Shown here piece by piece: positions 14,595 to 62,600 of a stretch of DNA of 64,000 nucleotides. Within the stretch, counting starts at the first letter, position 1. Each line of letters opens with the position of its first letter. The stretch lies in assembly GCA_964016885.1 (NCBI GenBank), contig OZ024745.1, forward strand, positions 10,540,001 through 10,604,000, written 5' to 3'. The notes under the pieces were generated by a model that had not been told where the DNA came from, did not search any database, and was given only the letters and a program-made list of their open reading frames with translations. Both the position numbers and the translations under genes were made by a program. Origin of the DNA: Eledone cirrhosa (taxonomy: Eukaryota).

Positions 14595-14705
14595 TGCAGC
14601 AATGTGAAATAAAGTATCTTGCCAAGACCCGTGCCACCCAGTCCGAGAATTGATCTCACAACCTCACCATCATGAGTTCAATATTCTGACTATTAAGCCA
14701 CATAC
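14595..14705 (-). mobile_element. CORE-type tRNA SINE family A, degenerate minus-strand copy
   Basis: gcaatgtgaaataaagtatcttgcc...gagaattgatctcacaacct...taagccacat is the reverse complement of the head and core of 38843-38960. Confidence 0.65.
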
Positions 14706-14939
14706 TTTCTCACACACACACACACACACTCACATACACACCTACCTTCACATACACACACACCTACCTTCACATACACACACACCTACCTTCACACACA
14801 CACACACCTATCTTCACATACACACACCGACCTTCAAATACACACCTACTTCCACACACACACCTACCTTCACACAAACACACACCTTCATATACACACA
14901 CACCTTCACAGATACACACACACACACACATTCACAACA

Positions 14940-17279
14940 CTTTGGACCTACTCTTCACCACTACTCCTGAAATGGTCATTAGTGTTACTGCTGAGGAACC
15001 TTTAGGTGACTCTGATCATGCTATGATCATTGCCAATCTATCTCTGATGGGCAGTAACAGGAACCACAACCATCTCCAAACTGCTCACTTTGACTGGAAT
15101 AAAGCAGACTGGAACTGTTACTGCACCGAGTTGCAACGGCCAAACTGGCTTGAGTTCTACGACTCTGGAGATGTCAACACTGTACTCCAGAACATCCTGA
15201 GCTCAATATGGACAGCATGTGCAGCATCGGTGCCACGTAAACGGAAAAAACATCCCAAAAGTGCAATTTGGGAGACTGCAACAGTACGTCTTGCCAGAAA
15301 AGAATGGCGCAATGCTGAACATGAGTACAAACTTCACAAATCAGACATTAATAGGAAGAGGCAAATTAGATCGTCCAACCACCTCAAACAGGTGACAAAA
15401 AAGGCAGTGCTTCAATTTGAGCAGCGCAGAGCAACCAGCCCTGACAGTAAGGTGCTCTGGAAGTATGTTCACTCCAGGCAGAGGCCTCACTCTCCAGTTG
15501 GTCCTCTTCACAATCCCCACACAAGCCAGTTTACTGACGACCCCAAGGAATGCGCAGAGCTCATTGCTGAATGCTATGCAGGCATTTTCACTATTGAAGA
15601 CCAGAGTGTACCATCTCCACCACCTATGACACCGGACTCTAATACAACCATGGAATTTACACCTGCAATGCTGCGACGTCACCTAAAAAATGAACGCAAC
15701 CATGCCTCTCCTGGTCTTGATGGTGTTACGTACCTGCTTCTTAAACGTGGTGGCTACTTCCTTCTGCACCAGTTATCACGCTTCTTCCAATTCTGTCTGA
15801 ACAACGGTGCTACTCCAGAACAGTGGAAAACTGCCAGTGTCATTCCTCTGTTCAAAAAGGGTGACAGCACATCACCTGTGAACTATCGTCCAGTCAGTCT
15901 TACTAGTTGCATTGCCAAACTGATGGAATCCTGTGTCAGAGAAACACTTTGGAACTTCTGGAACTCTCACAGTCTTATCCGGCCCTCGCAATTTGGATTT
16001 ATTTCCAGCTGCTGTGATCAACTTATCGAGTTTCTTGAAGACATCACCCGGATTACTGATGGCGGTTCATGGGTGGATGTTGTTTACCTTGACTTTGCTA
16101 AAGCTTTCAATTCTGTGCCACACAAAAGGCTTATGGCAAAACTCTCTGCAATGGGTGTGAAGGATGATCTTTTTAACTGGTTGAAGTCCTTCATTCTCAG
16201 TCGAAGAGAGGTAGTCACTGTTCTGGGACAGCATTCCTCACCATATGAGATGTCATCTGGTGTACCACAGGGATCTGTTCTTGGCCCCCTTTTGTTTGTG
16301 GCATATATTAATGACATAGATGCCAACTTAAAGAATGCCACAGTACTAAAGTACGCAGATGACATTAAGCTGTACCTTGAGATAAAAAGGATAGATCCTG
16401 AACACTATAGATCTTGCTTGCAGTCTGACCTGGACACAATCCAACAATGGATCTCAGACTGGCAACTCAAGCTAGCTGTGGACAAGTGCACCACCATGCA
16501 TTTTGGGAGTAAAAACCCAGCGTCCACATACTCCCTCCACAGCACTAATATCAAGAAGTCTTCTTGTGAACGTGACCTGGGCATTACGGTCAGCAGCGAT
16601 TTGTGTTTGACAAAGCACGTCTCTAAAATTGTCAAGAGGGCCGAGGGTGTCTTAGCATCACTCAGCAAGACCTTTGTCAGCCGCTCTCCAGCTATCTATT
16701 TAAGGCTGTAGACGGTTATGGTGCGGCCACACTTAGAATTTGTATCACCAGTCTGGAACCCCTATCTTGCTCAGAACATTGACCGCCTGGAAACTGTTCA
16801 GAGACGTGCAACCGAGCGAATACCCTCCATCAGGCATCTACCATACTCTGAGCGCCTTGCAACTGACTTGGTAAACACCCACAAAATTGTTAACCATCTT
16901 GCCAACAACAACCCTGAGTACCTTTTTGATTTCCATGTGTCTAACACGTGGGCATGTCCACAAAGTCAGAAAACAGCACAGTTCCCATGACTTTCGGAAA
17001 CATTTTTTCATGTTCAGAGTTGCTGAAGCATGGAACAAACTACCTGCATCAGTTGTTAGCTGTCGAGACACTGCATCCTTTAAGGCCTCCATGCTTCCCG
17101 AGATTCGCCAACACTACACCTAATGTTCCCCCTCCATACACATACACACATGTATATCATGACTCACACTATTCACTTCCCTGACATTTGTGTATTATTC
17201 TATGTACTATACATACACCTTTGACGAGTTGTAGTGCACCTGAGCACTATACACAATAATTTCATTATTATTATTATTA
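14940..17279 (+). mobile_element. 5'-truncated CR1-group LINE (C-terminal end of APE endonuclease, RT, 3' UTR, (ATT)n tail), inserted in a CA-rich microsatellite
   Basis: ORF 14942..16711 has GDSDH, SPGLDG, NYRPVSLTS, YLDFAKAF, GVPQGSVLGPLLF, KYADD and ERDLG. It continues after a premature stop as VRPHLEF..VWNPY, then shifts frame to RGH...FRVAEAWNKLP. Tail is ttcattattattatt. Confidence 0.95.
14942..17123 (+). pseudogene. Disrupted CR1-type ORF2 (reverse transcriptase)
   Basis: In-frame TAG at 16709-16711 and a frameshift near 16945, so the C-terminus is split across ORFs 16718..16990 and 16887..17123. Confidence 0.85.
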
Positions 17280-20898: not shown

Positions 20899-21037
20899 CT
20901 AGGCCTACCCTGTAAGTTAGTCACTACGACAAAAAGCACCTCTGGACAACATTTATGATAGGTTTAACAAAAAATGGGATGGTATTATTATATTGGTAAT
21001 AATTATATTTTTCTGATTTCTTTCTTTTCCGTTTAAG

Positions 21038-21265
21038 GTGGTACCGAAAACCACTTGGTACTTCTTGATTTACGCCCAAATCAACTGGATGGTGCATCTG
21101 TTGAAAAGATCCTTGAGGAAATTAACATTGCAGTCAATAAAAATACATGCCCTGGAGACAAATCTGCTTTGAAACCCAGTGGTATACGTATTGGAACCCC
21201 TGCACTCACTTCACGAATGTTTAAAGAAGATGACTTCAGACAGGTTGTTGAATTCATCCACCAAG
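21038..21265 (+). CDS. SHMT: Serine hydroxymethyltransferase, internal exon ([14 protein letters not shown]...[27 protein letters not shown]...FIHQ-G)
   Basis: Acceptor ttttccgtttaag and donor G|gtttgt; 228 bp; GGTx[11 protein letters not shown] and [13 protein letters not shown] are canonical SHMT motifs. Overlaps the listed ORF 21055..21303. Confidence 0.97.
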
Positions 21266-21479
21266 GTTTGTCTTTTTTGTTTATTTATTTTAAAATAAAA
21301 TAAACATTTTACTGCTTATTTTTTTCTTCATTGTACTTGAGGTCGTCATATTTTACAAACAATGACACGTTTTGTTTAAGCAATTAGTTTTATGGCTGAA
21401 AGATGTTATGACAAGCCACTCCAATGTGGAATAGAAGTAGAACCTGTTGTTAGCCAGACAGATTTAAGACAAGTAGACA

Positions 21480-41760: not shown

Positions 41761-44300
41761 CATCATCATCATCATCAACGTTTAACGTCCGTGTTCCACG
41801 CTTGCATGGGTTTGGACGGGGGTAGTCCCACTTGAGGCAAGAGTGATTGTCTTGCTCGCATAGGACTGTCTGGCAGGTTTTCTACAGTTGGATGCCCTTC
41901 CTAACACCAACCACATTTACAGTGTGGGTCTGGGAGGTTTTTACCGTGTTGCCTACACGGCCACATTACAGCGTGGACTGTGTGTTTTTTTGTCGTGACA
42001 CCTACACGATCTCATTTGTTTCGGCCCGGATGGCGCGGCACCAACATAACTTTACATAGGACGGGGTGGTGTGGATGGGGTGGGGGTGGTGGTGGTGGGA
42101 CGGGGTGTATTTTGTTAGAGATGCCTACTGGCAAGGCGGGTCTTCTCTGTTACTGAGTACCGCCAAAGGTCTCGGTCCAGTGACATTGTCTTGGAGAGGT
42201 GTAAGTGTGTGAGGTCGGAGTTTATCAGCTCGTCCCAGGTTTTTCTAGGTCTGCCTATTCCGTGGCTACCGTCTATCTTTATTGCCCTGCACTTTGTTAT
42301 ACAGCTATCGACTTTCATGCGCATCACGTGTCCATACCAACGTAGCCTTCTCTCGAGTAAACAACATCTGATCCCTCTTATCTCTAATTTTTTCCTTAGT
42401 TCGTTTATGCTTTGCCGTTCACGTATATTACTGTTACACATCCAGCGGAGCATGCAAGCTTCGTTCCTCTCTAGTCTGCGTATATCCTCTGCACACAATG
42501 CCCAGGTCTCACTGCCATGCAACATTGCTGTTCGTATGCAGGCATCGTACAACCTGCCTTTCATTTTTAGGGAGAACCCTTTAGCAGCTAATAGTGGTAT
42601 AAGCTCTCTGAACTTTTTCCAACCAGTTCTGACTCTAGCTACAGTACTTTCAGAGCACCCTCCCCCACTGCTGATTTTATCGCCCAGGTAACGGAAGCTG
42701 TCCACTATTTCTATAGAACCCTCTGCGCAATTGAAAGAGCTAGTATTGTGTGGGCACTTGCTGCTACTTATTGCACCAGAACACCGGCCACATGTAAAAT
42801 CTATGTTCTTAGTTAGCTTACCTGTGATCCCACTACATCTTTTATGCACCCATACTTTGCATTTAGGACACAAAATGGAGTTTCTACCTACGCCTTTCCT
42901 ACACACCGAGCACGACCATTTCCCAGAAGGGACCGCCGCCTTGTTTTCTTTCCTACAAACTAGAACTTTGGTCTTAGCCAGGTTAATTTTAAGTCCTTTT
43001 GACTCTAGGCCGTGCTTCCATGTTTGGAATTTCTTCTCTAGCTCGGCCATTGATTCCGCTATGAGTGTCAGGTCGTCTGCGTATAGGAGTTCCCATGGGC
43101 AGCCTGTCTTGAACTCCTCTGTTATAGCCTGAAGGGCAATAATAAATAGTAGGGGGCTGAGAACAGAGCCCTGATGGACGCCAACTTTTACGCTAAACTC
43201 TTCACTATATTCGTTGTTAATTCTAACCTTGCTGACTGTTTCTTTATACATGGCTTGTATAGCCCTCAGAAGCCATTCGTCAACGCCTAGTTTTCTAAGA
43301 GCCCACCAGATAATGGAGCGGGGGACTCTGTCGAAGGCTTTCTCCAAGTCGACAAAAGCTAAGTAGAGGGGTTTACCTTTAGCTAGGTACTTCTCCTGTA
43401 GTTGTCGTACTATGAAAAGAGCGTCTGTGGTACTTTTGCCTGACACAAACCCGAACTGCATTTCATCTAGGTCAATTCTCTCTCTGATTAGTTGCGCTAT
43501 TACTTTTTCTGTGACCTTCATGACCTGGTCGATTAATTTAATGCCTCTATAGTTGCTCCTATCTAGGGCGTCTCCTTTACCCTTATAACAGTTAACGATG
43601 ATGCTGCTATGCCAGTACTTCGGAACAGCCCCATTCTGTACGACTTGGTTAACTATGCGGGTGACCATGGTGTGTCCCACCGTGCCAGATGCCTTCAGCA
43701 TCTCAGCAACTATTTCCGAAGGCCCAGCCGCCTTACCTGTCTTCATATCCTTGATTGCCTTACTTATTATACTCCCCTCGACTAACACTGCTGGTCCCTC
43801 TATTGGGTCGACATGGGGGAGACTGTCTTTCTCCCATTTATTCTCCTCATTTAGTAGCCTTTCATAGTGACACTTCCAAGCTGCCTTCTTATCAGTGTCG
43901 GTGATGGCAAGTATGCCATCATCGTTAAGTACACACTTCTCCCCGACAATATCACGGTTTTCCTTGACGCATTGCCTAGCAATCCTGAACACCTCACGTT
44001 TTTGGTCATCGCGTTGTAGGACATGCTTGAACTTTCTTTCCTCAGCTTCCCTTCTTGCTAAGTACACTTCTCTCCTAGCTTCCCTCCTGGCCACTTGATA
44101 GTCTACTCTACTTCCCCCATCCCGCCATACTTTCCAAGCCTGCTTTTTGGCCTTAATTGACTCCTCCACCTTACTGTTCCACCACCATGTTACTCTCCTC
44201 CTGCCTACAGGCCTGCTCCAGCCACAGACTTCGTCTGTGGCCAACAGCAGGTTTGCTTTCAGAAATTCCCACTGTCCCTCTATATTGTCCGACTCTAAGT
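41761..44300 (-). mobile_element. 5'-truncated RTE-clade LINE with (GAT)n tail
   Basis: Uninterrupted RT ORF, ~350-bp 3' UTR, ends ggacgttaaacgtt(gat)n; inserted in TA/CA microsatellite. Confidence 0.95.
42115..44244 (-). CDS. RTE reverse transcriptase (N-truncated) with inserted PHD-like zinc finger
   Basis: GKAAGP, NYRGIKL, QFGF, FVDLEKAFD, GVHQGSVLSPLLF, LLYADDL, FRYLG, HGSETW, RRLRWYGHVMR and GRPRKTW. Confidence 0.93.
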   Translation of the reverse strand: MATDEVCGWSRPVGRRRVTWWWNSKVEESIKAKKQAWKVWRDGGSRVDYQVARREARREVYLARREAEERKFKHVLQRDDQKREVFRIARQCVKENRDIVGEKCVLNDDGILAITDTDKKAAWKCHYERLLNEENKWEKDSLPHVDPIEGPAVLVEGSIISKAIKDMKTGKAAGPSEIVAEMLKASGTVGHTMVTRIVNQVVQNGAVPKYWHSSIIVNCYKGKGDALDRSNYRGIKLIDQVMKVTEKVIAQLIRERIDLDEMQFGFVSGKSTTDALFIVRQLQEKYLAKGKPLYLAFVDLEKAFDRVPRSIIWWALRKLGVDEWLLRAIQAMYKETVSKVRINNEYSEEFSVKVGVHQGSVLSPLLFIIALQAITEEFKTGCPWELLYADDLTLIAESMAELEKKFQTWKHGLESKGLKINLAKTKVLVCRKENKAAVPSGKWSCSVCRKGVGRNSILCPKCKVWVHKRCSGITGKLTKNIDFTCGRCSGAISSSKCPHNTSSFNCAEGSIEIVDSFRYLGDKISSGGGCSESTVARVRTGWKKFRELIPLLAAKGFSLKMKGRLYDACIRTAMLHGSETWALCAEDIRRLERNEACMLRWMCNSNIRERQSINELRKKLEIRGIRCCLLERRLRWYGHVMRMKVDSCITKCRAIKIDGSHGIGRPRKTWDELINSDLTHLHLSKTMSLDRDLWRYSVTEKTRLASRHL

Positions 44301-44304
44301 GTTC

Positions 44305-49487: not shown

Positions 49488-52420
49488 CAGCAACACCACC
49501 CCATTGCGCAGGCTGGGTACATTATATTGACACCAGCAACACCACCCCACTGTGCAGGCTGGGTACATTATATTGACACCAGCAACACCACCCCACTGTG
49601 CAGGCTGGGTACATTATATTGACACCAGCAACACCACCCCACTGTGCAGGCTGGGTACATTATATTGACACCAGCAACACCACCCCACTGTGCAGGCTGG
49701 GTACATTATATTGACACCAGCAACACCACCCCACTGTGTAGGCTGGGTACATTATATTGACACCAGCAACACCACCCCACTGTGCAGGCTGGGTACATTA
49801 TATTGACACCAGCAACACCACCCCACTGTGCAGGCTGGGTACATTATATTGACACCAGCAACACCACCCCATTGTGCAGGCTGGGTACATTATATTGACA
49901 CCAGCAACACCACCCCACTGTGCAGGCTGGGTACATTATATTGACACCAGCAACACCACCCCACTGTGTAGGCTGGGTACATTATATTGACACCAGCAAC
50001 ACCACCCCACTGTGTAGGCTGGGTACATTATATTGACACCAGCAACACCACCCCACTGTGCAGGCTGGGTACATTATATTGACACCAGCAACACCACCCT
50101 ACTGTGTAGGCTGGGTACATTATATTGACACCAGCAACACCACCCCACTGTGTAGGCTGGGTACATTATATTGACACCAGCAACACCACCCCACTGTGCA
50201 GGCTGGGTACATTATATTGACACCAGCAACACCACCCCACTGTGTAGGCTGGGTACATTATATTGACACCAGCAACACCACCCCACTGTGTAGGCTGGGT
50301 ACATTATATTGACACCAGCAACACCACCCCACTGTGAAGGCTGGGTACATTATATTGACACCAGCAACACCACCCCACTGTGTAGGCTGGGTACATTATA
50401 TTGACACCAGCAACACCACCCCACTGTGTAGGCTGGGTACATTATATTGACACCAGCAACACCACCCCACTGTGTAGGCTGGGTACATTATATTGACACC
50501 AGCAACACCACCCCACTGTGTAGGCTGGGTACATTATATTGACACCAGCAACACCACCCCACTGTGTAGGCTGGGTACATTATATTGACACCAGCAACAC
50601 CACCCCACTGTGTAGGCTGGGTACATTATATTGACACCAGCAACACCACCCCACTGTGTAGGCTGGGTACATTATATTGACACCAGCAACACCACCCCAT
50701 TGTGCAGGCTGGGTACATTATATTGACACCAGCAACACCACCCCACTGTGTAGGCTGGGTACATTATATTGACACCAGCAACACCACCCCACTGTGTAGG
50801 CTGGGTACATTATATTGACACCAGCAACACCACCCCACTGTGTAGGCTGGGTACATTATATTGACACCAGCAACACCACCCCACTGTTTAGGCTGGGTAC
50901 ATTATATTGACACCAGCAACACCACCCCACTGTGTAGGCTGGGTACATTATATTGACACCAGCAACACCACCCCACTGTGTAGGCTGGGTACATTATATT
51001 GACACCAGCAACACCACCCCACTGTGTAGGCTGGGTACATTATATTGACACCAGCAACACCACCCCACTGTTTAGGCTGGGTACATTATATTGACACCAG
51101 CAACACCACCCCACTGTGTAGGCTGGGTACATTATATTGACACCAGCAACACCACCCCACTGTTTAGGCTGGGTACATTATATTGACACCAGCAACACCA
51201 CCCCACTGTGTAGGCTGGGTACATTATATTGACACCAGCAACACCACCCCACTGTGCAGGCTGGGTACATTATATTGACACCAGCAACACCACCCCACTG
51301 TGTAGGCTGGGTACATTATATTGACACCAGCAACACCACCCCACTGTTTAGGCTGGGTACATTATATTGACACCAGCAACACCACCCCACTGTGTAGGCT
51401 GGGTACATTATATTGACACCAGCAACACCACCCCATTGTGCAGGCTGGGTACATTATATTGACACCAGCAACACCACCCCACTGTGTAGGCTGGGTACAT
51501 TATATTGACACCAGCAACACCACCCCACTGTGTAGGCTGGGTACATTATATTGACACCAGCAACACCACCCCACTGTGTAGGCTGGGTACATTATATTGA
51601 CACCAGCAACACCACCCCACTGTGTAGGCTGGGTACATTATATTGACACCAGCAACACCACCCTACTGTGTAGGCTGGGTACATTATATTGACACCAGCA
51701 ACACCACCCCACTGTGTAGGCTGGGTACATTATATTGACACCAGCAACACCACCCCATTGTGCAGGCTGGGTACATTATATTGACACCAGCAACACCACC
51801 CCACTGTGTAGGCTGGGTACATTATATTGACACCAGCAACACCACCCCACTGTGTAGGCTGGGTACATTATATTGACACCAGCAACACCACCCCACTGTG
51901 TAGGCTGGGTACATTATATTGACACCAGCAACACCACCCCATTGTGCAGGCTGGGTACATTATATTGACACCAGCAACACCACCCCATTGTGCAGGCTGG
52001 GTACATTATATTGACACCAGCAACACCACCCCACTGTGCAGGCTGGGTACATTATATTGACACCAGCAACACCACCCCATTGTGCAGGCTGGGTACATTA
52101 TATTGACACCAGCAACACCACCCCATTGTGCAGGCTGGGTACATTATATTGACACCAGCAACACCACCCCACTGTGCAGGCTGGGTACATTATATTGACA
52201 CCAGCAACACCACCCCACTGTGTAGGCTGGGTACATTATATTGACACCAGCAACACCACCCCACTGTGCAGGCTGGGTACATTATATTGACACCAGCAAC
52301 ACCACCCCACTGTGCAGGCTGGGTACATTATATTGACACCAGCAACACCACCCCACTGTGTAGGCTGGGTACATTATATTGACACCAGCAACACCACCCC
52401 ACTGTGTAGGCTGGGTACAT
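49488..52420. repeat. 46-bp minisatellite array, ~64 copies
   Basis: Unit gacaccagcaacaccaccccactgtg(c/t)aggctgggtacattatatt. Confidence 0.99.
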
Positions 52421-52856
52421 CCAGACAATTCAATAAAGCAGCTTCACTATCACCACCAGCTTTTGGTAATGTAAACATTTTTGTATTCTAGTCCTGTAGA
52501 AAACATTTCTCTATATAATAAACATATCTGTGTGTGTGTATATATACACACACACACATATATACATAAAGAGAATGTGTTCATATACGTATAGAAAATG
52601 TACGTATGAAAATAATATATATATTGTATGTGTGTGTATATATATACACACACTATACTATACGTATATGAATACATTCTCTTTAGCTAGCTTCGTAAAC
52701 CAATATTTATATATTTATTTTCATATGTATGTTTTATATATGTATATTTGCGTATGTATATACATATGTATGTATATATATTTTTATACATTCATTTTAT
52801 ATATCTATATCTCTCTCTCTATATATATATATATTCTCTTTGATTAAATTCATAAA

Positions 52857-52906
<50 letters not shown>

Positions 52907-52939
52907 TGTTATATATATATATATATATATATTATATTG

Positions 52940-52976
<37 letters not shown>

Positions 52977-52980
52977 TATA

Positions 52981-53522
52981 ATATATAGTAAGAAACACAG
53001 TAAACCGTGTGTCTAAAATTACAAGGGTTGAAAAACCACATATGCTTGAAATATTTAACCAAGAAACAGACAGAATGACGAAATGAAAATAAAAATATAT
53101 TATCAAATAATACAAACCGCCTCAATAACCATTATATCTCTCGGACAGATTATCCCTAATCTGTTTCGCCCCGAGTGTGTTTGTAACAGATAATCCTGGG
53201 CTTCATCAGCGAGAGATTGCGATTAAATGCCACAAACACTATTTGCCAACGTTCACACAGAAAGATGAATTCATCACCTCGTGCTTCGCCAGCCAAACGT
53301 GGTAAGCGCGTGTTGAACAGAAATAACAGTCCAACACGCACAACTTAATAGCTCATCCTGTAAGAGAGCCGAAATATATATATATGAATTAGAACCCTGT
53401 AACCATTAAGCTCTAAGTATAAAGTATAAATACTGAGCCGATTAACAATATATAGTAAGAAACACAGTAAACCGTGTGTCTAAAATTACAAGGGTTGAAA
53501 AACCACATATGCTTGAAATATA
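52981..53522 (-). mobile_element. Non-coding hammerhead-bearing element with ~73-bp terminal direct repeats (Penelope pLTR or retrozyme-like)
   Basis: atatatagtaagaaacacag...cacatatgcttgaaatat occurs at 52981-53053 and 53449-53521, bracketing a full hammerhead. Confidence 0.75.
53136..53217 (-). ncRNA. Type I hammerhead ribozyme
   Basis: Minus strand reads ATCTCTCG CTGATGA A GCCC...GGGC GAAA CAGATTA-GGGA-TAATCTG TC^ CGAGAGAT: 8-bp stem I, 7-bp stem III plus the core A-U pair, GUC triplet. Confidence 0.9.
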
Positions 53523-54244
53523 TTTCGGCTCCCCTATACATGGCTTGTACCGCTTTCACAAGCCATTCATCTACTCCTAGTTTTCTAAGAGCCCACCAGA
53601 TTACTGCACGTGGAACTCTGTCAAAGGCTTTCTCAAGGTCGACAAATGCCAAGTAGAGTGGCTTACTTTTAGCTAGGTACTTTTCCTGTAATTGCCTCAC
53701 AAGGAAGAGGGCATCAGTGGTGCCTTTCCCTGGTACAAACCCAAATTGCATCTCGTCTATATTCACCCGGTCCCTAATCAGCTGTGCTATAACTCTTTCT
53801 GTTACTTTCATGACCTGGTCCATCAACTTTATACCTCTATAGTTTCCTCTATCTAGTGCATCACCTTTACCTTTGTAGCAGTTGACAATGATGCTACTGC
53901 ACCAATCTTTTGGTATGGCCCCCTCTAGTATTACCTGGTTAACGATACGTGTGGTTATAGTGTGACCTACAGACCCAGATGCCTTCAGCATCTCGGCAGC
54001 TATACCCGATGGACCGGTTGCCTTCCCTATCTTCATATCTCTGATTGCCTTACTTACTACGCTGCCACTGACTTGTACTGCTGGTCCCTCTATAGGGTCT
54101 ACGTGGGGTAGGGTCTCTTCTTCCCATGCATTCTCCTCATTTAGTAATCTATCATAATGACTCTTCCATGCATCTTTCTTCTCAGCACTTGTGAGGGCAA
54201 GCTCACCTTTATCATTCCGGATACACTTCTCCGGATACACTTCT
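53523..54244 (-). mobile_element. Internal RTE RT fragment (subfamily related to 42115..44244)
   Basis: ORF 53413..54240 has LPHVDPIEGPAV, NYRGIKLMD, QFGF and FVDLEKAFDRVPR; truncated at both ends before the YADD motif. Confidence 0.92.
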
Positions 54245-54334
54245 GTATATATATATATATTTTATAAATATATTATAAACGGAAAAAATGAAACGAAATT
54301 TCATTTCCCACTCTTAGTACGGCTGTTACTTAAA

Positions 54335-54858
54335 TATAAGTATGTATACGTACATACATATATGTATACAGATGTACAGTATGTATATATATACATACAT
54401 GCACACATATATATATATGTACATATGGATTCATCGAACATTTATTATAAAGCTTGGTGTGTTTGTAAACAAACATCCCGTATTAAGCCGTAGTGTCTAG
54501 CAACCACCGTTGCTCGTTTGTTCAACACTGACAAAGGAACGCCGTTAATATGCATAAGGAAAGTATATACTTTCAGACGTTCAATCATCTGGCAGGAAGG
54601 TATACGTTGCTGACGATAGTTAATAAGCTTGAAACTAGTACAGCGTTCCTTTGTCAGTGTTGAACAAACGAGCAACGGTGGTTGCTAGACACTGTACGGC
54701 TTAATTCGGGATGTTTGTTTACAAACACACCGAGATATTATAATAGATGTTCGGTGAATCCATGCGTACATATATATATGTGTGCATGTATGTATATATA
54801 TATATACATACTACTGTACGTCTATATACATATATGTATGTACGTATACATACTTATA
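54335..54858. repeat. Long inverted repeat (~210-bp arms, ~96-bp spacer), probable inverted Penelope pLTR
   Basis: 54335-54544 is the near-perfect reverse complement of 54641-54858. Confidence 0.9.
54604..54646 (+). ncRNA. Minimal type I hammerhead ribozyme
   Basis: ACGTTG CTGACGA T AGTT-AATA-AGCT T GAAA CTAG TA^ CAGCGT; palindromic ACTAGT stem III; GUA triplet. Confidence 0.8.
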
Positions 54859-54888
54859 AATATATTATATATATATACATATTTATAT

Positions 54889-54924
<36 letters not shown>

Positions 54925-54926
<2 letters not shown>

Positions 54927-56223
54927 AGGAGGTTATAGTAGGTAACAGAGGAAGGCAACATCCACACCTGCTTCTATAAAAAATCCGCCAGCAGGGACCT
55001 GTTCGTACATTTCAGATCGGCCCTCCCACTCGGTGCCAAGTTCGGATACATAAAGAACGAACTGGCACGTATCAAGAACAAATGCACCGACGCCAGAGAC
55101 CGAGACACACACACCACACATTTCCTGGAAGTACTCAAACTGAACGGATACACGACATCCACCACAAACCGTGCCAGAAAGAACAGAGGACACCACACCC
55201 GAGGCACTAACACTTGCTTCCTGAAGCTCCCACACTTCAGTGAAGAAACAACAACAGCCATCCGCAGAGCCATCAGACGAGAAGGTCTGGATATTCAACT
55301 GGCCCATTCGGGTCCTTCTTTGCGTGGACGGCTAGCTAAGAGACACTCCACCAGACATGACAACTGCTGCAGACTAGCCAACTGCCCCATCAACGACACA
55401 GACCTATGCCACCAGGCTTACGTAGTTTACAGACTAGAGTGTGACAAATGCAACAACTTCTACGTAGGTAGCACCACCAGACCACTCCACATAAGAATAA
55501 AGGAACACCTCAATACTAACGCTTCCTCATTTAAGAAACACCTAGTTAAATGCAAAAACACTGATAAAAACATAACAGTTAGGATAGAAACTAAAGAAAG
55601 AAACCTCGGTAATCTTAGAATCAAGGAAGCACTCATTATAGATAGAACACATCCACCAATCAATAATAGACTAGAGCTCAACACCCAATTTATAACCTGA
55701 TAGGGCCTCTAGCCCCACTTTACACACCCCACACACACGCACGCACACACCTCCACTTATTCTCTCTCACACATACACACACAAAACCAGTTCTAACACC
55801 AGATAACACCTACCCCCCACTTTTACGATTAGACCTATCTTCCCACACTCACACACACACATACCTACACCTTCATGCTTTCTCCCACACACATATACAG
55901 GCACGCATATAAAATTTAAAAAACACAACAAAAACATAAACAAACCCCTCTTAAAGGGAGACTACTCTTTACCCACCTAATTTTAATTCTTTGATATTAA
56001 AGTTAGAACTCTATACTATTTCCGGTCAGCATGGCTTCATTGGAAATTTAGACGCTGGTCTGAGACTTTTACTTCCCTCCGAAGAAGAGATATTATCTCG
56101 AAAATTAAGGACATTTAAATAAATTCAAGGTGAAAGACGAATTCTCATCAATATCTCTCACTATTGCATTCTTTTTCTATGTCCATATCTGCATTGTCTT
56201 GGCCTTATTACACATATTCTAAC

Positions 56224-56227
<4 letters not shown>
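54925..56227 (+). mobile_element. 5'-truncated Penelope-like element (non-Naiad; Neptune/Nematis-like Cys linker)
   Basis: GIY-YIG ORF plus a ~520-bp 3' UTR with a hammerhead-like motif; bounded by (TA)n on both sides. Confidence 0.8.
54942..55700 (+). CDS. Penelope-like element C-terminal fragment (RT thumb, Cys linker, GIY-YIG endonuclease)
   Basis: The frame is open from 54942 (IHTCFYKKSASRDLFVHFRSALP...LKLNGY...LKLPHFSE) into ORF 55320..55700 (CCRLANCP..C...VVYRLECDKCNNFYVGSTTRPLHIRIKEH...IKEALII...INNR). Confidence 0.88.
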   Translation, partial: VTEEGNIHTCFYKKSASRDLFVHFRSALPLGAKFGYIKNELARIKNKCTDARDRDTHTTHFLEVLKLNGYTTSTTNRARKNRGHHTRGTNTCFLKLPHFSEETTTAIRRAIRREGLDIQLAHSGPSLRGRLAKRHSTRHDNCCRLANCPINDTDLCHQAYVVYRLECDKCNNFYVGSTTRPLHIRIKEHLNTNASSFKKHLVKCKNTDKNITVRIETKERNLGNLRIKEALIIDRTHPPINNRLELNTQFIT

Positions 56228-56267
<40 letters not shown>

Positions 56268-56271
<4 letters not shown>

Positions 56272-56362
56272 CTGAGCAAGACAACCAATTTTACCTCAAG
56301 TGGGACAATTCCCATGCTAGCGTGGAAGGTGGACGTTAAACGATGATGATGATGATGATGAT
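56268..56362 (+). mobile_element. RTE 3' tail fragment
   Basis: gagcaagacaa...cctcaagtgggac...cccatgctagcgtggaaggtggacgttaaacgatgat matches the 41761-41860 reverse complement. Confidence 0.75.
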
Positions 56363-56716
56363 ATATACATATTTATATACATTTTATATATATATACATT
56401 TTATATATATATATATATAATGATGGGATTAAATTGCTATTTTGATCTTTTGTGACTAAATAGTTCTATTGACTGGCTTTTCTAAATAACCATTGTTTTC
56501 TTAAAATGGTCAATGGTGCATGTGTGTGTCTGTGTGTGTCTGTCTCTGTGTGCCAGTGTGTGTGTCTCTGTGTGTGTCTCTGTGTGTGTGTGTGTGTGTC
56601 TCTGTGTGTGTCTCGGTGTGTGGTGTATTATCATTAGCAGTGGCATCAGACTTCCCACCATTGTCCTTGGCACCACTCTCTATTGTGTCTAGAAATAGAT
56701 ACTGGCTACTTGTTAA

Positions 56717-58497
56717 TGATAATAATTATGGTGATGGTGATGGAGGTGGTGATGGAAGTGGAGATGATGGTGATGGTGATGATTGTAGTGATGGCGGTGA
56801 TGGAGATGATGATGGTGATGATGGTGATGGTGATGATGGTAGTGATGGAGATGATGGAGGTGGAGATGATGGTGGTAATGATGGTGGTGATGGTGATGAT
56901 GGTAGTGATGGAGATGATGGAGGTGGTGATGGAGATGATGGTGGTGATGGAGATGATGGTGGTGATGGTGGCGATGGAGATGGTGGTGGTGGTGGAGGTG
57001 GAGGTGGTGGTAATTATCATTCTCCACTTTAGTTTTTATCATTTGAAGCAATCACCACCACTACCATCACTATCACTATCATCACCACCACTACCATCAC
57101 CACTACCATCACTATCACTATCATCACCATCACTACCACCACTACCATCACCACCACTACCATCACTATCACTATCATCACCATCACTACCACCACTCCC
57201 ATCACCACCACTACCATCACTACCATCACCACCACTACCATCACCATCACTACCATCACCATCACTACCACCACTACCATCACCACTACAATCACTACCA
57301 CCACTACAATCACTACCACCACTACCATCACCATCACCACTACCATCACCATCACTACCACCATTACAATCACTATCACCACTACCATCACCATCACTAC
57401 CACCACTACTACCATCACCACTACCATCACCACTACCATCACCATCACTACCACCACTACCATCACCACTACCATCACCACCACTACCATCACTATCACT
57501 AACATCACCATCACTACCACCACCACCACTACCGTTACCATCACCACCACTACCACTACCATCACCACTACCACCACTACCATCACCACTACCATCACCA
57601 CCACTACCATAACTATCACCACTACCACTACCATCACCACTACCACCACTACCATCACCACTACCACCATAACTATCACCACTACCACTACCATCACCAC
57701 TACCACCACTACCATCACCACTACCATCACCACCACTACCATAACTATCACCACTACTACTACCATCACCACTACCATCACTACCATCACCACCATCACC
57801 ATCACTACCACCACCACTACCATCACCACCACTACCATCACCACCACTACCATCACCACTACCATCACTACCATCACCACCACTACCATCACCACTACCA
57901 TCACCACCACTACCATCACCATCACCACCACTACCATCACCACCACTACCATCACCACCACTACCATCACCATCACCACCACTACCATCACCACCACTAC
58001 CATCACCACCACTACCACTACCATCACCATCACCACCACTACCATCACCATCACCACCACTACCATCACTACCACTACCATCACCACTACCATCACTACC
58101 ATCACCACCACTACCATCACCACTACCATCACTACCATCACCACCACTACCATCACCACCACTACCACTACCATCACCACTACCATCACTACCATCACCA
58201 CCACTACCATCACCACTACCATCACTACCATCACCACCACTACCATCACCACTACCATCACTACCATCACCACCACTACCATCACCACTACCATCACTAC
58301 CATCACCACCACTACCATCACCACCACTACCACTACCATCATCACTACCATCACCACCACTACCATCACCACTACCATCACTACCATCACCACCACTACC
58401 ACCACCACCACTACCACTACCATCACCATCATCACCACTACCACCACCACCACTACCATCACCATCACCATCATCATCACTATCATTATCATCATTC
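56717..58497. repeat. (GAT/GGT)n tract followed by a long (CAC/CAT/CTA)n tract
   Basis: Direct reading; 56717-57012 and 57050-58497. Confidence 0.95.
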
Positions 58498-58803
58498 TTT
58501 TTGTCTGTATCAATGTCAGCATTACCAATTCTCCTTTCACAGAGATGGGGAAGAGGAAGGGGAGGATGGGGTGTTGGGAGGGGAAGGAGGTGGGTGTTTG
58601 GAAGGGAGGAGGAGGTGGGTGTAGGGAAGGGAGGAGGAGGTGGGTGTAGGGAAGGAGGAGGATGTAATTTAACTGTTGGCTTCAGTGCTTTTGTCATTAT
58701 CTGTCACTACAGGTGGGTGACCTTGTCCAGGGGTGGGGTGGGGTGGCATCCCAGCTTATCTGTCATGAACATTACTCCCCTCCTCCTTCTCACTTTAATT
58801 TAA

Positions 58804-59145
58804 CCCTTTAGTACCAACCCGGCTTTAGTACAGCTCTGGTTCTATGAAATAAAACCACCCATTTTAAAGGTTTCCAATTTAAATTAAAATCTTCCAACAT
58901 AATTTTATATAAGTATCCTACATTAAGTTACTATCTTAGTAATGAAATAATTAATTTTAGTAAATCCCACAAAATTCTTCATTAATCGATTAAAATAGAG
59001 TATCATTAGAAATATGGTCATGAAACGGTTATCAAAGGATCTTACATAAAATTATGATAGAATGTTTTCAAATAAAAATAAACACTTAAACAGTTTTGAA
59101 ATGCAGAACCCTGGGCCAATTTCAGGAAGCTTGGTAACATAAGGG
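58804..59145. mobile_element. Possible second piggyBac-type MITE family (degenerate)
   Basis: TTAA-ccctttagtaccaa ... ttggtaacataaggg; a similar right end (ttggtaccaaaagggttaa) occurs near 31228-31246. Confidence 0.45.
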
Positions 59146-59694
59146 CTGCTAATGAGAAAGTTATATTACTAAATTTTTGCAAATTCTTGATTTTGAAAAT
59201 TATTTGAAAATGTTATCCAGTTTCTTTCATTAGAAATATGGTAATGAAGGTGTTAAGGTGTCATAATTAATTGAAATACTGGATGGACTTGGGGGAAACC
59301 TTATGATAAATGTTGTTTTGTGTTCTTTAGCAAGACATAACTCTGCTTGTCGCATTCAATCTGCTTGAATAAAAGAATGCCTGGCAAAAATACCCAATGA
59401 TGACTGCTCTATGGAAATTTATTAATGAAATGGGCACTACCATTTTTAATGTACTTAAAGTAAAAAAAAATTTAATTAAAATTACACCCTTTGTGATGAG
59501 AAATCATTATTTAAATGACCGATCCTGTTACTCATTCCTGAAATTTTAATTAAAATCAATAAAATCTGGAATGCATTTTTATGGTTGAGTGGTTCACAGG
59601 AAATGTATTTTGATATGAAAACAATTGTTTCAATAACATAAAAAAATAAGGTTGTTCAAGAAACTGCCCCATGGCAAAGTTTACTAAAGATAAA

Positions 59695-62600
59695 TAGCCA
59701 GTGGTACATCATCATCATCACCATAGCCAGTGGTACATCAACATCATCATCATCACCATAGCCAGTGGTACATCATCATCATCATCACCATAGCCAGTGG
59801 TACATCATCATCATCACCATAGCCAGTGGTACATCAACATCATCATCATCATCACCATAGCCAGTGGTACATCATCATCATCACCATAGCCAGTGGTACA
59901 TCAACATCATCATCATCACCATAGCCAGTGGTACATCATCATCATCATCATCACCATAGCCAGTGGTACATCATCATCATCATCACCATAGCCAGTGGTA
60001 CATCATCATCATCATCATCACCATAGCCAGTGGTACATCAACATCATCATCATCACCATAGCCAGTGGTACATCATCATCATCATCACCATAGCCAGTGG
60101 TACAACATCATCATCATCACCACCATAGCCAGTGGTACATCATCATCATCATCATCACCATAGCCAGTGGTACAACATCATCATCATCATCACCATAGCC
60201 AGTGGTACAACATCATCATCATCATCACCATAGCCAGTGGTACATCATCATCATCATCACCACCATAGCCAGTGGTACATCATCATCATCATCAACATAG
60301 CCAGTGGTACATCATCATCATCATCAACATAGCCAGTGGTACATCATCATCATCATCAACATAGCCAGTGGTACATCATCATCATCATCAACATAGCCAG
60401 TGGTACATCATCATCATCATCAACATAGCCAGTGGTACATCATCATCATCATCAACATAGCCAGTGGTACATCATCATCATCATCACCATAGCCAGTGGT
60501 ACATCATCATCATCATCACCACCATAGCCAGTGGTACATCATCATCATCATCATCAACATAGCCAGTGGTACATCATCATCATCATCATCACCATAGCCA
60601 GTGGTACATCATCATCATCATCAACATAGCCAGTGGTACAACATCATCATCATCACCATAGCCAGTGGTACATCATCATCATCACCACCATAGCCAGTGG
60701 TACATCATCATCATCATCAACATAGCCAGTGGTACATCATCATCATCATCAACATAGCCAGTGGTACATCATCATCATCATCATCAACATAGCCAGTGGT
60801 ACATCATCATCATCATCACCACCATAGCCAGTGGTACATCATCATCATCATCATCAACATAGCCAGTGGTACATCATCATCATCATCATCATAGCCAGTG
60901 GTACATCATCATCATCATCACCATAGCCAGTGGTACAACATCATCATCATCATCACCATAGCCAGTGGTACATCATCATCATCATCACCACCATAGCCAG
61001 TGGTACATCATCATCATCATCATCAACATAGCCAGTGGTACATCATCATCATCATCACCATAGCCAGTGGTACAACATCATCATCATCACCATAGCCAGT
61101 GGTACATCATCATCATCATCACCACCATAGCCAGTGGTACATCATCATCATCATCACCACCATAGCCAGTGGTACATCATCATCATCATCACCACCATAG
61201 CCAGTGGTACATCATCATCATCATCACCACCATAGCCAGTGGTACATCATCATCATCATCACCATAGCCAGTGGTACATCATCATCATCATCACCATAGC
61301 CAGTGGTACAACATCATCATCATCAACATAGCCAGTGGTACATCATCATCATCATCAACATAGCCAGTGGTACATCATCATCATCATCAACATAGCCAGT
61401 GGTACATCATCATCATCATCATCAACATAGCCAGTGGTACATCATCATCATCATCACCATAGCCAGTGGTACAACATCATCATCATCACCATAGCCAGTG
61501 GTACAACATCATCATCATCAACATAGCCAGTGGTACATCATCATCATCATCATCACCATAGCCAGTGGTACATCATCATCATCATCAACATAGCCAGTGG
61601 TACATCATCATCATCATCACCATAGCCAGTGGTACATCATCATCATCATCATCACCATAGCCAGTGGTACATCATCATCATCATCACCATAGCCAGTGGT
61701 ACATCATCATCATCATCACCATAGCCAGTGGTACATCATCATCATCATCATCACCATAGCCAGTGGTACATCATCATCATCATCACATAGCCAGTGGTAC
61801 ATCATCATCATCATCACCATAGCCAGTGGTACATCATCATCATCATCAACACCATAGCCAGTGGTACATCATCATCATCATCACCATAGCCAGTGGTACA
61901 TCATCATCATCATCATCACCATAGCCAGTGGTACATCATCATCATCATCAACATAGCCAGTGGTACATCATCATCATCATCATCACCATAGCCAGTGGTA
62001 CATCATCATCATCACCATAGCCAGTGGTACATCATCATCATCATCACCATAGCCAGTGGTACATCATCATCATCATCAACACCATAGCCAGTGGTACATC
62101 ATCATCATCATCACCATAGCCAGTGGTACATCATCATCATCATCACCATAGCCAGTGGTACATCATCATCATCATCAACATAGCCAGTGGTACATCATCA
62201 TCATCATCACCATAGCCAGTGGTACATCATCATCATCATCATCACCATAGCCAGTGGTACATCATCATCATCATCACCATAGCCAGTGGTACATCATCAT
62301 CATCACCATAGCCAGTGGTACATCATCATCATCATCAACATAGCCAGTGGTACATCATCATCATCATCATCAACATAGCCAGTGGTACATCATCATCATC
62401 ATCACCATAGCCAGTGGTACATCATCATCATCATCATCACCATAGCCAGTGGTACATCATCATCATCATCACCATAGCCAGTGGTACATCATCATCATCA
62501 TCACCATAGCCAGTGGTACATCATCATCATCATTCACCATAGCCAGTGGTACATCATCATCATCATCACCATAGCCAGTGGTACATCATCATCATCATCA

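What the first reader, a model, noticed from the sequence alone, without database searches (positions are those of the whole stretch)
54335..54858. Long inverted repeat whose arm begins exactly at a hammerhead cleavage site
Seen: a minimal hammerhead (54604-54646, +) sits in the spacer of a ~210-bp inverted repeat. Its predicted cut (GUA^, after 54640) coincides with the start of the right arm (cagcgttcc...). The left arm ends at ggaacgccg (54544), the inverted copy of those first nucleotides. Known: Penelope elements often have inverted pLTRs. Inference: the inverted copy is a cDNA that ran to the ribozyme-generated 5' end of the RNA, which would be a genomic footprint of in vivo cleavage. 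Within a host pre-mRNA it would also form long dsRNA, a potential ADAR substrate (relevant if the host is a coleoid cephalopod).
Basis: partly seen in the sequence, partly recalled or inferred. Interest (0 to 1): 0.75.

Follow-up and report, generated by a model that had tools for sequence, protein, structure and literature searches.

The report
Head-to-head retrozyme insertion, cut-site coincidence
The inverted repeat and the hammerhead motif are real, but they are one back-to-back insertion of a repeat present in thousands of copies, likely pasted in by a Penelope-type enzyme, and because other copies break all along the repeat, the match to the predicted ribozyme cut site is likely chance.

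Summary
The inverted repeat (54335-54545 / 54640-54858) and the type I hammerhead motif are real. Both belong to a ~425-nt tandem non-coding family with at least 15,025 monomers: a non-LTR retrozyme. The cleavage-footprint idea fails for this family. Of 77 junctions between -7 and +10 of the predicted cut, 3 start at +1 (uniformity p=0.32), and flanking windows show no step. The join here lies at +3..+5 on a microhomology that recurs elsewhere with swapped ends (L221). What is fixed is the 3' end, at two sites 59 nt apart, mostly followed by TA runs. Where both outer ends are canonical, 89 of 94 head-to-head insertions have one of each; the neighbouring Penelope-like family does so in 12 of 12. 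Likely mechanism: both nicked target strands prime reverse transcription, at different internal sites, on uncleaved or circular RNA, and the truncated cDNAs are joined. No RNA data. The scan found this architecture before on other DNA of this genome, and reported cut-site pile-ups in other families.

The parts
54275..54542 (-). Inverted, 5'-truncated retrozyme arm, consensus c277 (long 'tail' end) back to c3; haplotype A
54275..54334 (-). Unpaired 59-nt tail (c219-c277) between the family's two fixed 3' ends; includes a predicted ~12-bp hairpin
54541..54858 (+). Direct, 5'-truncated retrozyme arm, c333 through the predicted cut to c217/218 (short end); haplotype B
54541..54545 (.). Head-to-head junction: 2-nt exact, 4-of-5 imperfect microhomology; the same join recurs at L221 with the ends swapped
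54596..54652 (+). Type I hammerhead motif with extended stem I; core 54610-54616, GAAA 54631-54634, predicted cut after 54640; intact in this copy
54245..54274 (.). TA-rich target tract at the tail end
54859..54924 (.). TA-rich target tract at the short end; the neighbouring Penelope-like element sits in it
54925..54939 (-). 15-nt inverted stub of the neighbouring Penelope-like element, ending at that family's tail end (u1310)
54941..56230 (+). Separate, younger 5'-truncated Penelope-like element (GIY-YIG part of the ORF 54942-55700, pLTR, short end u1270); comparison case, not shown to be the driver

Best explanation
54275-54858 is two 5'-truncated copies of a ~425-nt tandem hammerhead repeat joined back to back in a TA tract, likely made by a Penelope-like enzyme that would prime reverse transcription from both nicked target strands. 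Shown: the family and its copy number; two fixed 3' ends; scattered 5' ends; one tail end plus one short end per inverted insertion; microhomology at joins; copies running through the intact hammerhead. Inferred: the two fixed ends are internal RT start sites (by analogy with PMC11167929), one per target strand. The template is a multimeric uncleaved or circular RNA, usually the same molecule or locus for both arms. Each cDNA stops at an essentially random point and the two are joined at a short microhomology. The join falls 3-5 nt from the predicted cut by chance, helped by a local microhomology. The ribozyme is likely under selection in source lineages, for another step such as making monomers or circles, but leaves no detectable footprint in this family's breakpoints.
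For: 8,950 exact copies of the 22-mer after the cut; 15,025 of a 17-mer; 16 cut-to-cut monomers of 422-448 nt. 3' ends: 125 of 409 at c214-222 and 127 of 409 at c274-278, TA-rich sequence following in 107 of 125 and 119 of 127. 155 head-to-head joins against 2 tail-to-tail. One tail plus one short end in 75 of 79, and 89 of 94 after rescuing arms broken by microsatellite (p 3e-21 against 50%). The neighbouring Penelope-like family shows the same in 12 of 12 pairs. Overlap of >=2 nt at 59 of 90 clean joins against 16% in a random-join null. Cut window: 3 of 77 at +1, chi-square p=0.32 over -7..+9. 123 intact crossings of the cut against 0 of 99 5' ends at +1..+5 in the C1 sample. Junctions per 1,000 anchors: 5.1 at -7..+10 and 4.1 at -37..-21. 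Arms share the A/B haplotype in 74 of 81, tandem neighbours in 98 of 100. L129 has the same retrozyme-to-Penelope junction in both arms, and L146 joins a retrozyme arm head to head with a Penelope arm. Stem I pair -34/+3 reads TG 244, GT 57, AT 14 of 334 copies.
Against: 57 of 151 head-to-head insertions keep at least one non-canonical outer end that I could not resolve. No sequence likeness between the retrozyme and the neighbouring element's pLTR (scores 18 and 28 against shuffled means near 23), so the driver is unidentified. In vitro, PAc showed no strand difference in RT start site (PMC11167929). The C1 sample was chosen for an intact +1..+22, which depletes starts at +2..+22. It also shows 12 of 99 5' ends at -37..-21 against 3.9 expected (post hoc p 7e-4), unexplained though not borne out by the normalised genome count. 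Four of six window rates rest on 30 loci each and on estimated denominators. Overlaps come from BLAST ends and may be inflated relative to the exact null. At -44/+11, 16 of 334 copies are unpaired A.G, and covariation counts copies, not events. Circular and linear templates are not told apart.
Confidence: 0.8

Rival explanations
1. One reading: the left arm is a cDNA that ran off a ribozyme-cleaved 5' end. One version fits a single heteromeric dimer RNA that begins at the cut, primed at c277 of monomer n and c218 of monomer n+1.
For: The arm ends within 5 nt of the cut. Different haplotypes in the two arms would fit two different monomers. The motif is intact and covaries. Unreviewed scan notes report pile-ups at cut sites in other families of this genome.
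Against: No excess in this family: 22 junctions at +1..+5 of 65 in -7..+9, against 20.3 expected. By simple arithmetic about 5% of two-armed insertions should have an arm ending within 5 nt of the cut. The same microhomology is reused at L221, where the arm runs to -1.
Confidence: 0.1
2. Fold-back: one cDNA snaps back on itself and copies itself to make the inverted arm.
For: Arms usually share a haplotype (74 of 81). L129's left arm is an inverted duplicate of part of the right arm and ends at a non-canonical site. Some of the 57 unresolved ends could be of this kind.
Against: It does not predict that the second arm ends at the other fixed site in 89 of 94 cases. Here the left arm carries 59 nt that the right arm lacks, and a different haplotype.
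Confidence: 0.06
3. A MITE, or a DNA-level rearrangement of a satellite after insertion.
For: Some later DNA-level change exists: L079 repeats a dimer unit, and L046 has blocks of near-identical monomers.
Against: Inner boundaries differ from copy to copy and half of sampled loci are not inverted (34 of 68). Polarity is 155 head-to-head to 2 tail-to-tail. The outer ends are two different fixed sites.
Confidence: 0.03

Closest known systems
Metazoan non-LTR retrozymes (Cervera and de la Pena 2020, PMC7229834, passages; Li, Clavereau and Pollet 2026, bioRxiv 10.64898/2026.07.22.740005, parts 1-3 of 5)
   Same: Short, low-GC, non-coding tandem monomers with one type I hammerhead each; thousands of dispersed copies; weak palindromic helix III and a U.U at the base of helix II, both described for axolotl motifs; proposed to be moved by Penelope-like elements.
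   Different: Expression, cleavage and circles are untested here, and no parent pLTR was found. In the parts read, these papers do not describe head-to-head insertions, two fixed 3' ends or breakpoint statistics ('inverted' occurs 0 times in PMC7229834).
Insertion units of endonuclease-bearing Penelope-like elements (Craig et al. 2021, PMC8557442, passages and section 11)
   Same: 5' truncation, partial tandems, an inverted 5'-truncated copy, a tail at one end only, (TA)n targets, non-autonomous head-to-tail derivatives.
   Different: No ORF; the tail is 59 nt rather than 30-40; the paper states one-sidedness qualitatively, here it is counted (89 of 94).
PAc Poseidon element in vitro (Frangieh et al. 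2024, PMC11167929, abstract and main text)
   Same: Two internal RT start sites that define the tail; both target strands cut and extended; AT-rich targets; hammerhead cleavage not needed and uncleaved RNA the main substrate.
   Different: No strand difference in start site in vitro, whereas genomic pairs here are almost always mixed; start sites here are not in an AC-rich loop; the identity of the two ends as RT starts is inferred.
L1 twin priming (recalled, no call)
   Same: Both target strands prime, giving a head-to-head join with microhomology.
   Different: The second priming site is fixed rather than random, the arms overlap in sequence, and there is no poly(A).

Membership tests
Non-LTR retrozyme | Tandem monomers of a few hundred nt with one type I hammerhead each | tested here: met
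   16 monomers of 422-448 nt; arrays of 7 or more units
Non-LTR retrozyme | No coding capacity, low GC, no LTRs | tested here: met
   Only a low-complexity 110-aa stop-to-stop frame overlaps the element at >=100 aa; AT-rich monomer without LTR layout. PBS and PPT were not searched.
Non-LTR retrozyme | Many dispersed copies | tested here: met
   8,950, 15,025 and 31,398 exact motif hits, the last including a sister subfamily
Non-LTR retrozyme | Expressed as linear and circular RNA | not testable with these tools
   No run on record as RNA was listed
Type I hammerhead ribozyme | Conserved core, NUH triplet and three helices | tested here: met
   Core CUGACGA in 249 and CUGAUGA in 23 of 303; triplet GUA 271 and GUU 14 of 303; both-sided changes at -34/+3 and -44/+11
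Type I hammerhead ribozyme | Match to a curated model | tested here: not met
   No Rfam hammerhead family among 81 matches at E<=5 in 50000-60000; assignment rests on the motif and covariation
Type I hammerhead ribozyme | Self-cleavage | not testable with these tools
   Needs an assay; helix III suggests dimer dependence (PMC4209133, passages)
Penelope-type insertion | Fixed 3' ends with a one-sided tail, 5' truncation, inverted 5' copy | tested here: met
Penelope-type insertion | Microsatellite target | tested here: met
   TA-rich sequence after 226 of 252 canonical ends
Penelope-type insertion | Kinship to the pLTR of an autonomous partner | tested here: inconclusive
   No likeness to the one family compared; two chimeric loci with relatives of it; other families not compared
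MITE | Constant terminal inverted repeats and interior | tested here: not met
   Variable inner joins, tandem arrays, two different outer ends
Hydra clade (neighbouring element only) | DKT motif and no CCHH in the endonuclease (PMC8557442, section 11) | tested here: not met
   The protein printed has DKG and a CxxC..H..H pattern, read by eye; clade not resolved

The most novel reading that the evidence does not exclude
In vivo the two internal RT start sites of Penelope-type insertion are strand-assigned: each insertion uses one site on one target strand and the other site on the other, in a non-coding retrozyme (89 of 94) and an autonomous family (12 of 12) alike. The complex can even carry two different RNAs (L146; 7 of 81 discordant arm pairs), and it reads through an uncleaved or religated ribozyme. 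The inverted pLTR with a one-sided tail would then be the direct record of an asymmetric dimeric complex.
Probability: 0.5. Interest if true: 0.6.

Novelty: new member of a known kind. Interest (0 to 1): 0.3.

Why it matters
The headline claim, a genomic footprint of in vivo cleavage, is not upheld for this family, so the locus itself is ordinary. Two by-products have value. First, a counted negative: a conserved, covarying hammerhead leaves no mark on breakpoints, which agrees with the in vitro report that cleavage is not needed and points to uncleaved or circular templates. Second, the near-strict pairing of one tail end with one short end bears on how Penelope inverted repeats and tails form, which PMC8557442 names as an open task, and it can be tested in the existing PAc assay. 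Retrozyme-Penelope chimeras add support to the proposed dependence of animal retrozymes on Penelope-like elements.

Tried and rejected
Rfam: no hammerhead match, only weak miRNA-type matches to hairpins and AT repeats. An apparent peak at +4 (16 of 78) fell to 7 of 77 once subfamily variants were accepted; a peak of 10 at -3 lies upstream of the cut, and 12 at +10 is an anchor-edge effect. An apparent hump at -37..-21 (about 130 junctions) vanished on normalising, because that anchor has 31,398 hits against 15,025. RNA: no RNA holder listed; two runs guessed to be RNA laid nothing, which is no evidence either way. In contigs of run X3 the +3 variant looked commoner than the -34 variants, but depths are unphased, so I did not use this. 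The neighbouring Penelope family as parent: no pLTR likeness. A shared tail hairpin: present in the retrozyme (z -1.1), absent from the neighbour's tail. A conserved in-frame stop in the neighbour's ORF: it is private to 1 of 7 copies. Pile-up of one arm's 5' end at the partner's start site: not evident in 36-nt bins, apart from 17 of 117 tail arms at c217-252. Host gene: 34 of 59 higher-complexity frames were scanned; only RT domains, a PHD beside an RT, an SHMT piece and a below-cutoff YoaL match. Paper searches found no report of the pairing rule or of cut-site breakpoint tests; subscription papers and all supplements were not seen and may bear on this.

Full report
Observation. The inverted repeat is real: 54335-54545 against 54640-54858, 198 matches, 13 mismatches, 4 gaps. 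A type I hammerhead motif lies at 54604-54646 on the + strand with the predicted cut after A54640. Stem I continues past an internal loop, helix II has a U.U at its base, and helix III is short and palindromic. Rfam did not detect it and it folds no better than shuffles, so the assignment rests on the motif and on covariation.

Family. The spacer and right arm match many loci at 95-98%. The 22 bases after the cut occur exactly 8,950 times, a 17-mer 15,025 times, and a stem II 17-mer 31,398 times, partly in a sister subfamily with 466-502-nt monomers. Sixteen cut-to-cut monomers of 422-448 nt gave a 432-position reference, numbered from the cut. The window holds c277 to c3 on the minus strand (54275-54542) and c333 to c217 on the plus strand (54541-54858). 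The direct copy's family sequence reaches back to 54541. The inverted arm therefore ends at +3..+5, on a 2-nt exact (4-of-5 imperfect) microhomology, not exactly at the cut.

Test of the cleavage footprint. (a) Only 13 of 8,950 copies have three non-family bases before +1. By eye 9 are true starts (6 inversions, 3 genomic joins) and 4 are deletions or a duplication. (b) A pattern that catches any break between -7 and +10 gave 85 hits, all examined: 62 inversions, 15 genomic joins, 8 internal indels dropped. Of the 77 junctions, 3 start at +1, and the 65 in -7..+9 are uniform (p=0.32). A first pass showed 16 of 78 at +4; this came from a subfamily variant and fell to 7. (c) Five further windows of the same design gave 65, 186, 114, 57 and 137 hits; the first 30 loci of each gave estimated junction totals of 39, 130, 57, 48 and 68. 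Measured denominators give 4.1 per 1,000 at -37..-21 and 5.1 at -7..+10. Denominators estimated by hand from anchor ratios give about 8-9 at -72..-57, 4-4.5 at -17..-1, 3.6-3.9 at +13..+29 and about 5 at +63..+79. There is no step at the cut. (d) In a C1 sample of 76 loci, 3 of 99 5' ends lie within 10 nt of the cut (4.6 expected) and none at +1..+5, while 123 copies cross the cut intact. That sample is biased against starts at +2..+22 and shows a post hoc excess at -37..-21 (12 against 3.9). (e) The window's join recurs at L221 with different flanks and with tail and short ends swapped; other joins recur likewise. Overlaps of 2 nt or more occur at 59 of 90 clean joins against 16% in a null; 65 of 155 joins with gaps or long overlaps were not counted.

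What is fixed. 252 of 409 3' ends fall at c214-222 or c274-278, and 226 of these are followed by TA-rich sequence. Head-to-head joins outnumber tail-to-tail 155 to 2. Of 151 with both outer ends in view, 79 had two canonical ends: 75 mixed, 2 short-short, 2 tail-tail. After rescue, 89 of 94 are mixed and 57 stay unresolved. The window is a mixed pair. The adjacent Penelope-like family (3,124-nt unit, copies about 99.5% alike) has ends 40 nt apart, and 12 of 12 pairs, which I picked by orientation and not by ends, are mixed. Its copy in the window has a 15-nt inverted tail stub.

Template. Arms share diagnostic variants nearly as tandem neighbours do (discordance 67 of 795 and 36 of 821, against 0.45 for random pairs). 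The A/B haplotype agrees in 74 of 81 arm pairs and 98 of 100 neighbours (Fisher p=0.08). The window is one of the 7 discordant pairs, so its left arm was not copied from its right. L129 carries one retrozyme-to-Penelope junction in both arms, and L146 joins a retrozyme arm to a Penelope arm. These two loci link that enzyme lineage to the retrozyme, but there is no pLTR kinship. Arrays of 7 or more units and the read-through of the cut require a circular or uncleaved multimeric RNA; the data do not separate the two.

Ribozyme. Common variants fall at tolerated places (N7, GUA to GUU, loop II). Pair -34/+3 reads TG 244, GT 57, AT 14, and -44/+11 reads AT 289, TG 21, AG 16 of 334 copies. These are few lineage events, so the support is moderate. 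In a read-through RNA of this locus the left arm is predicted to pair with the 3' strand of stem I and block the fold.

Mechanism and comparison. PMC11167929 (abstract and main text) shows a Penelope-like protein cutting and extending both strands of AT-rich DNA from two internal start sites that define the tail, with no need for hammerhead cleavage. PMC8557442 (passages and section 11) describes the inverted 5'-truncated copy, the one-sided tail and TA targeting. PMC7229834 (passages), PMC4209133 (passages) and bioRxiv 10.64898/2026.07.22.740005 (parts 1-3 of 5) define non-LTR retrozymes, dimeric hammerheads and the proposed Penelope link. The element works like a Penelope insertion and meets the sequence criteria of a non-LTR retrozyme; expression and cleavage are untested. 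The counted pairing rule was not found in print (open-access library only, no supplements read). Scan notes on other DNA of this genome already describe the twin-arm, one-tail layout, and some report cut-site pile-ups in other families; these are unreviewed, and I tested the step idea only in this family. The host species was not determined.

Verdict. Real feature, central interpretation not supported, new family of a known kind. Interest 0.3.

Noticed in passing
window 52980-53521 (-): A second hammerhead-bearing unit: 467-nt period with 75-nt terminal redundancy, TA run at its 3' end, a motif near 53150-53225 with a long helix III, and a ~14-nt inverted piece at its 5' end. No overall likeness to the main family, though by eye both share a 12-nt AC-rich word.
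   Followed up: partly
window 54925-56230; L284-L295: Very young Penelope-like family (2,755 first-look candidates), 860-aa ORF open in 2 of 3 spanning copies, DKG and CCHH present, Cys-rich linker of unusual spacing, degenerate hammerhead-like motif near 56075-56115; clade unresolved.
   Followed up: partly
L129 1425-2952; L146 1245-2822: Retrozyme-Penelope chimeras: the same junction in both arms (L129), and a head-to-head join of the two elements with no TA tract between (L146).
   Followed up: partly
L079 143-2073: Array with a two-monomer period: units 2 and 4 share 10 rare variants, units 1 and 3 share one. Either a dimer template or later duplication.
   Followed up: partly
consensus c396-412 (window about 54604-54620): 12 of 99 5' ends in the C1 sample against 3.9 expected; could mark an RNA start or be an ascertainment effect; not seen in the normalised genome count. 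Octamer-like and TATA-like words lie upstream (labels recalled).
   Followed up: partly
L388-L403: Sister subfamily with 466-502-nt monomers, the same hammerhead core, changes that keep stem I paired, and the same tail end in L389 and L391.
   Followed up: partly
window 53522-54243 (-): Internal fragment of a LINE reverse transcriptase (RVT_1), RTE-like by recall, with a 14-nt tandem duplication at 54216-54243.
   Followed up: no
window 21037-21300 (+): Serine hydroxymethyltransferase C-terminal fragment (E 1.6e-30); exon, pseudogene or foreign piece not determined.
   Followed up: no
window 42118-44304 (-) and 14690-16708 (+): Long RT frames; the first has a PHD finger after the RT.
   Followed up: no
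window 56700-58700: Long trinucleotide-type arrays in opposite orientations, meeting near 57010-57050.
   Followed up: no
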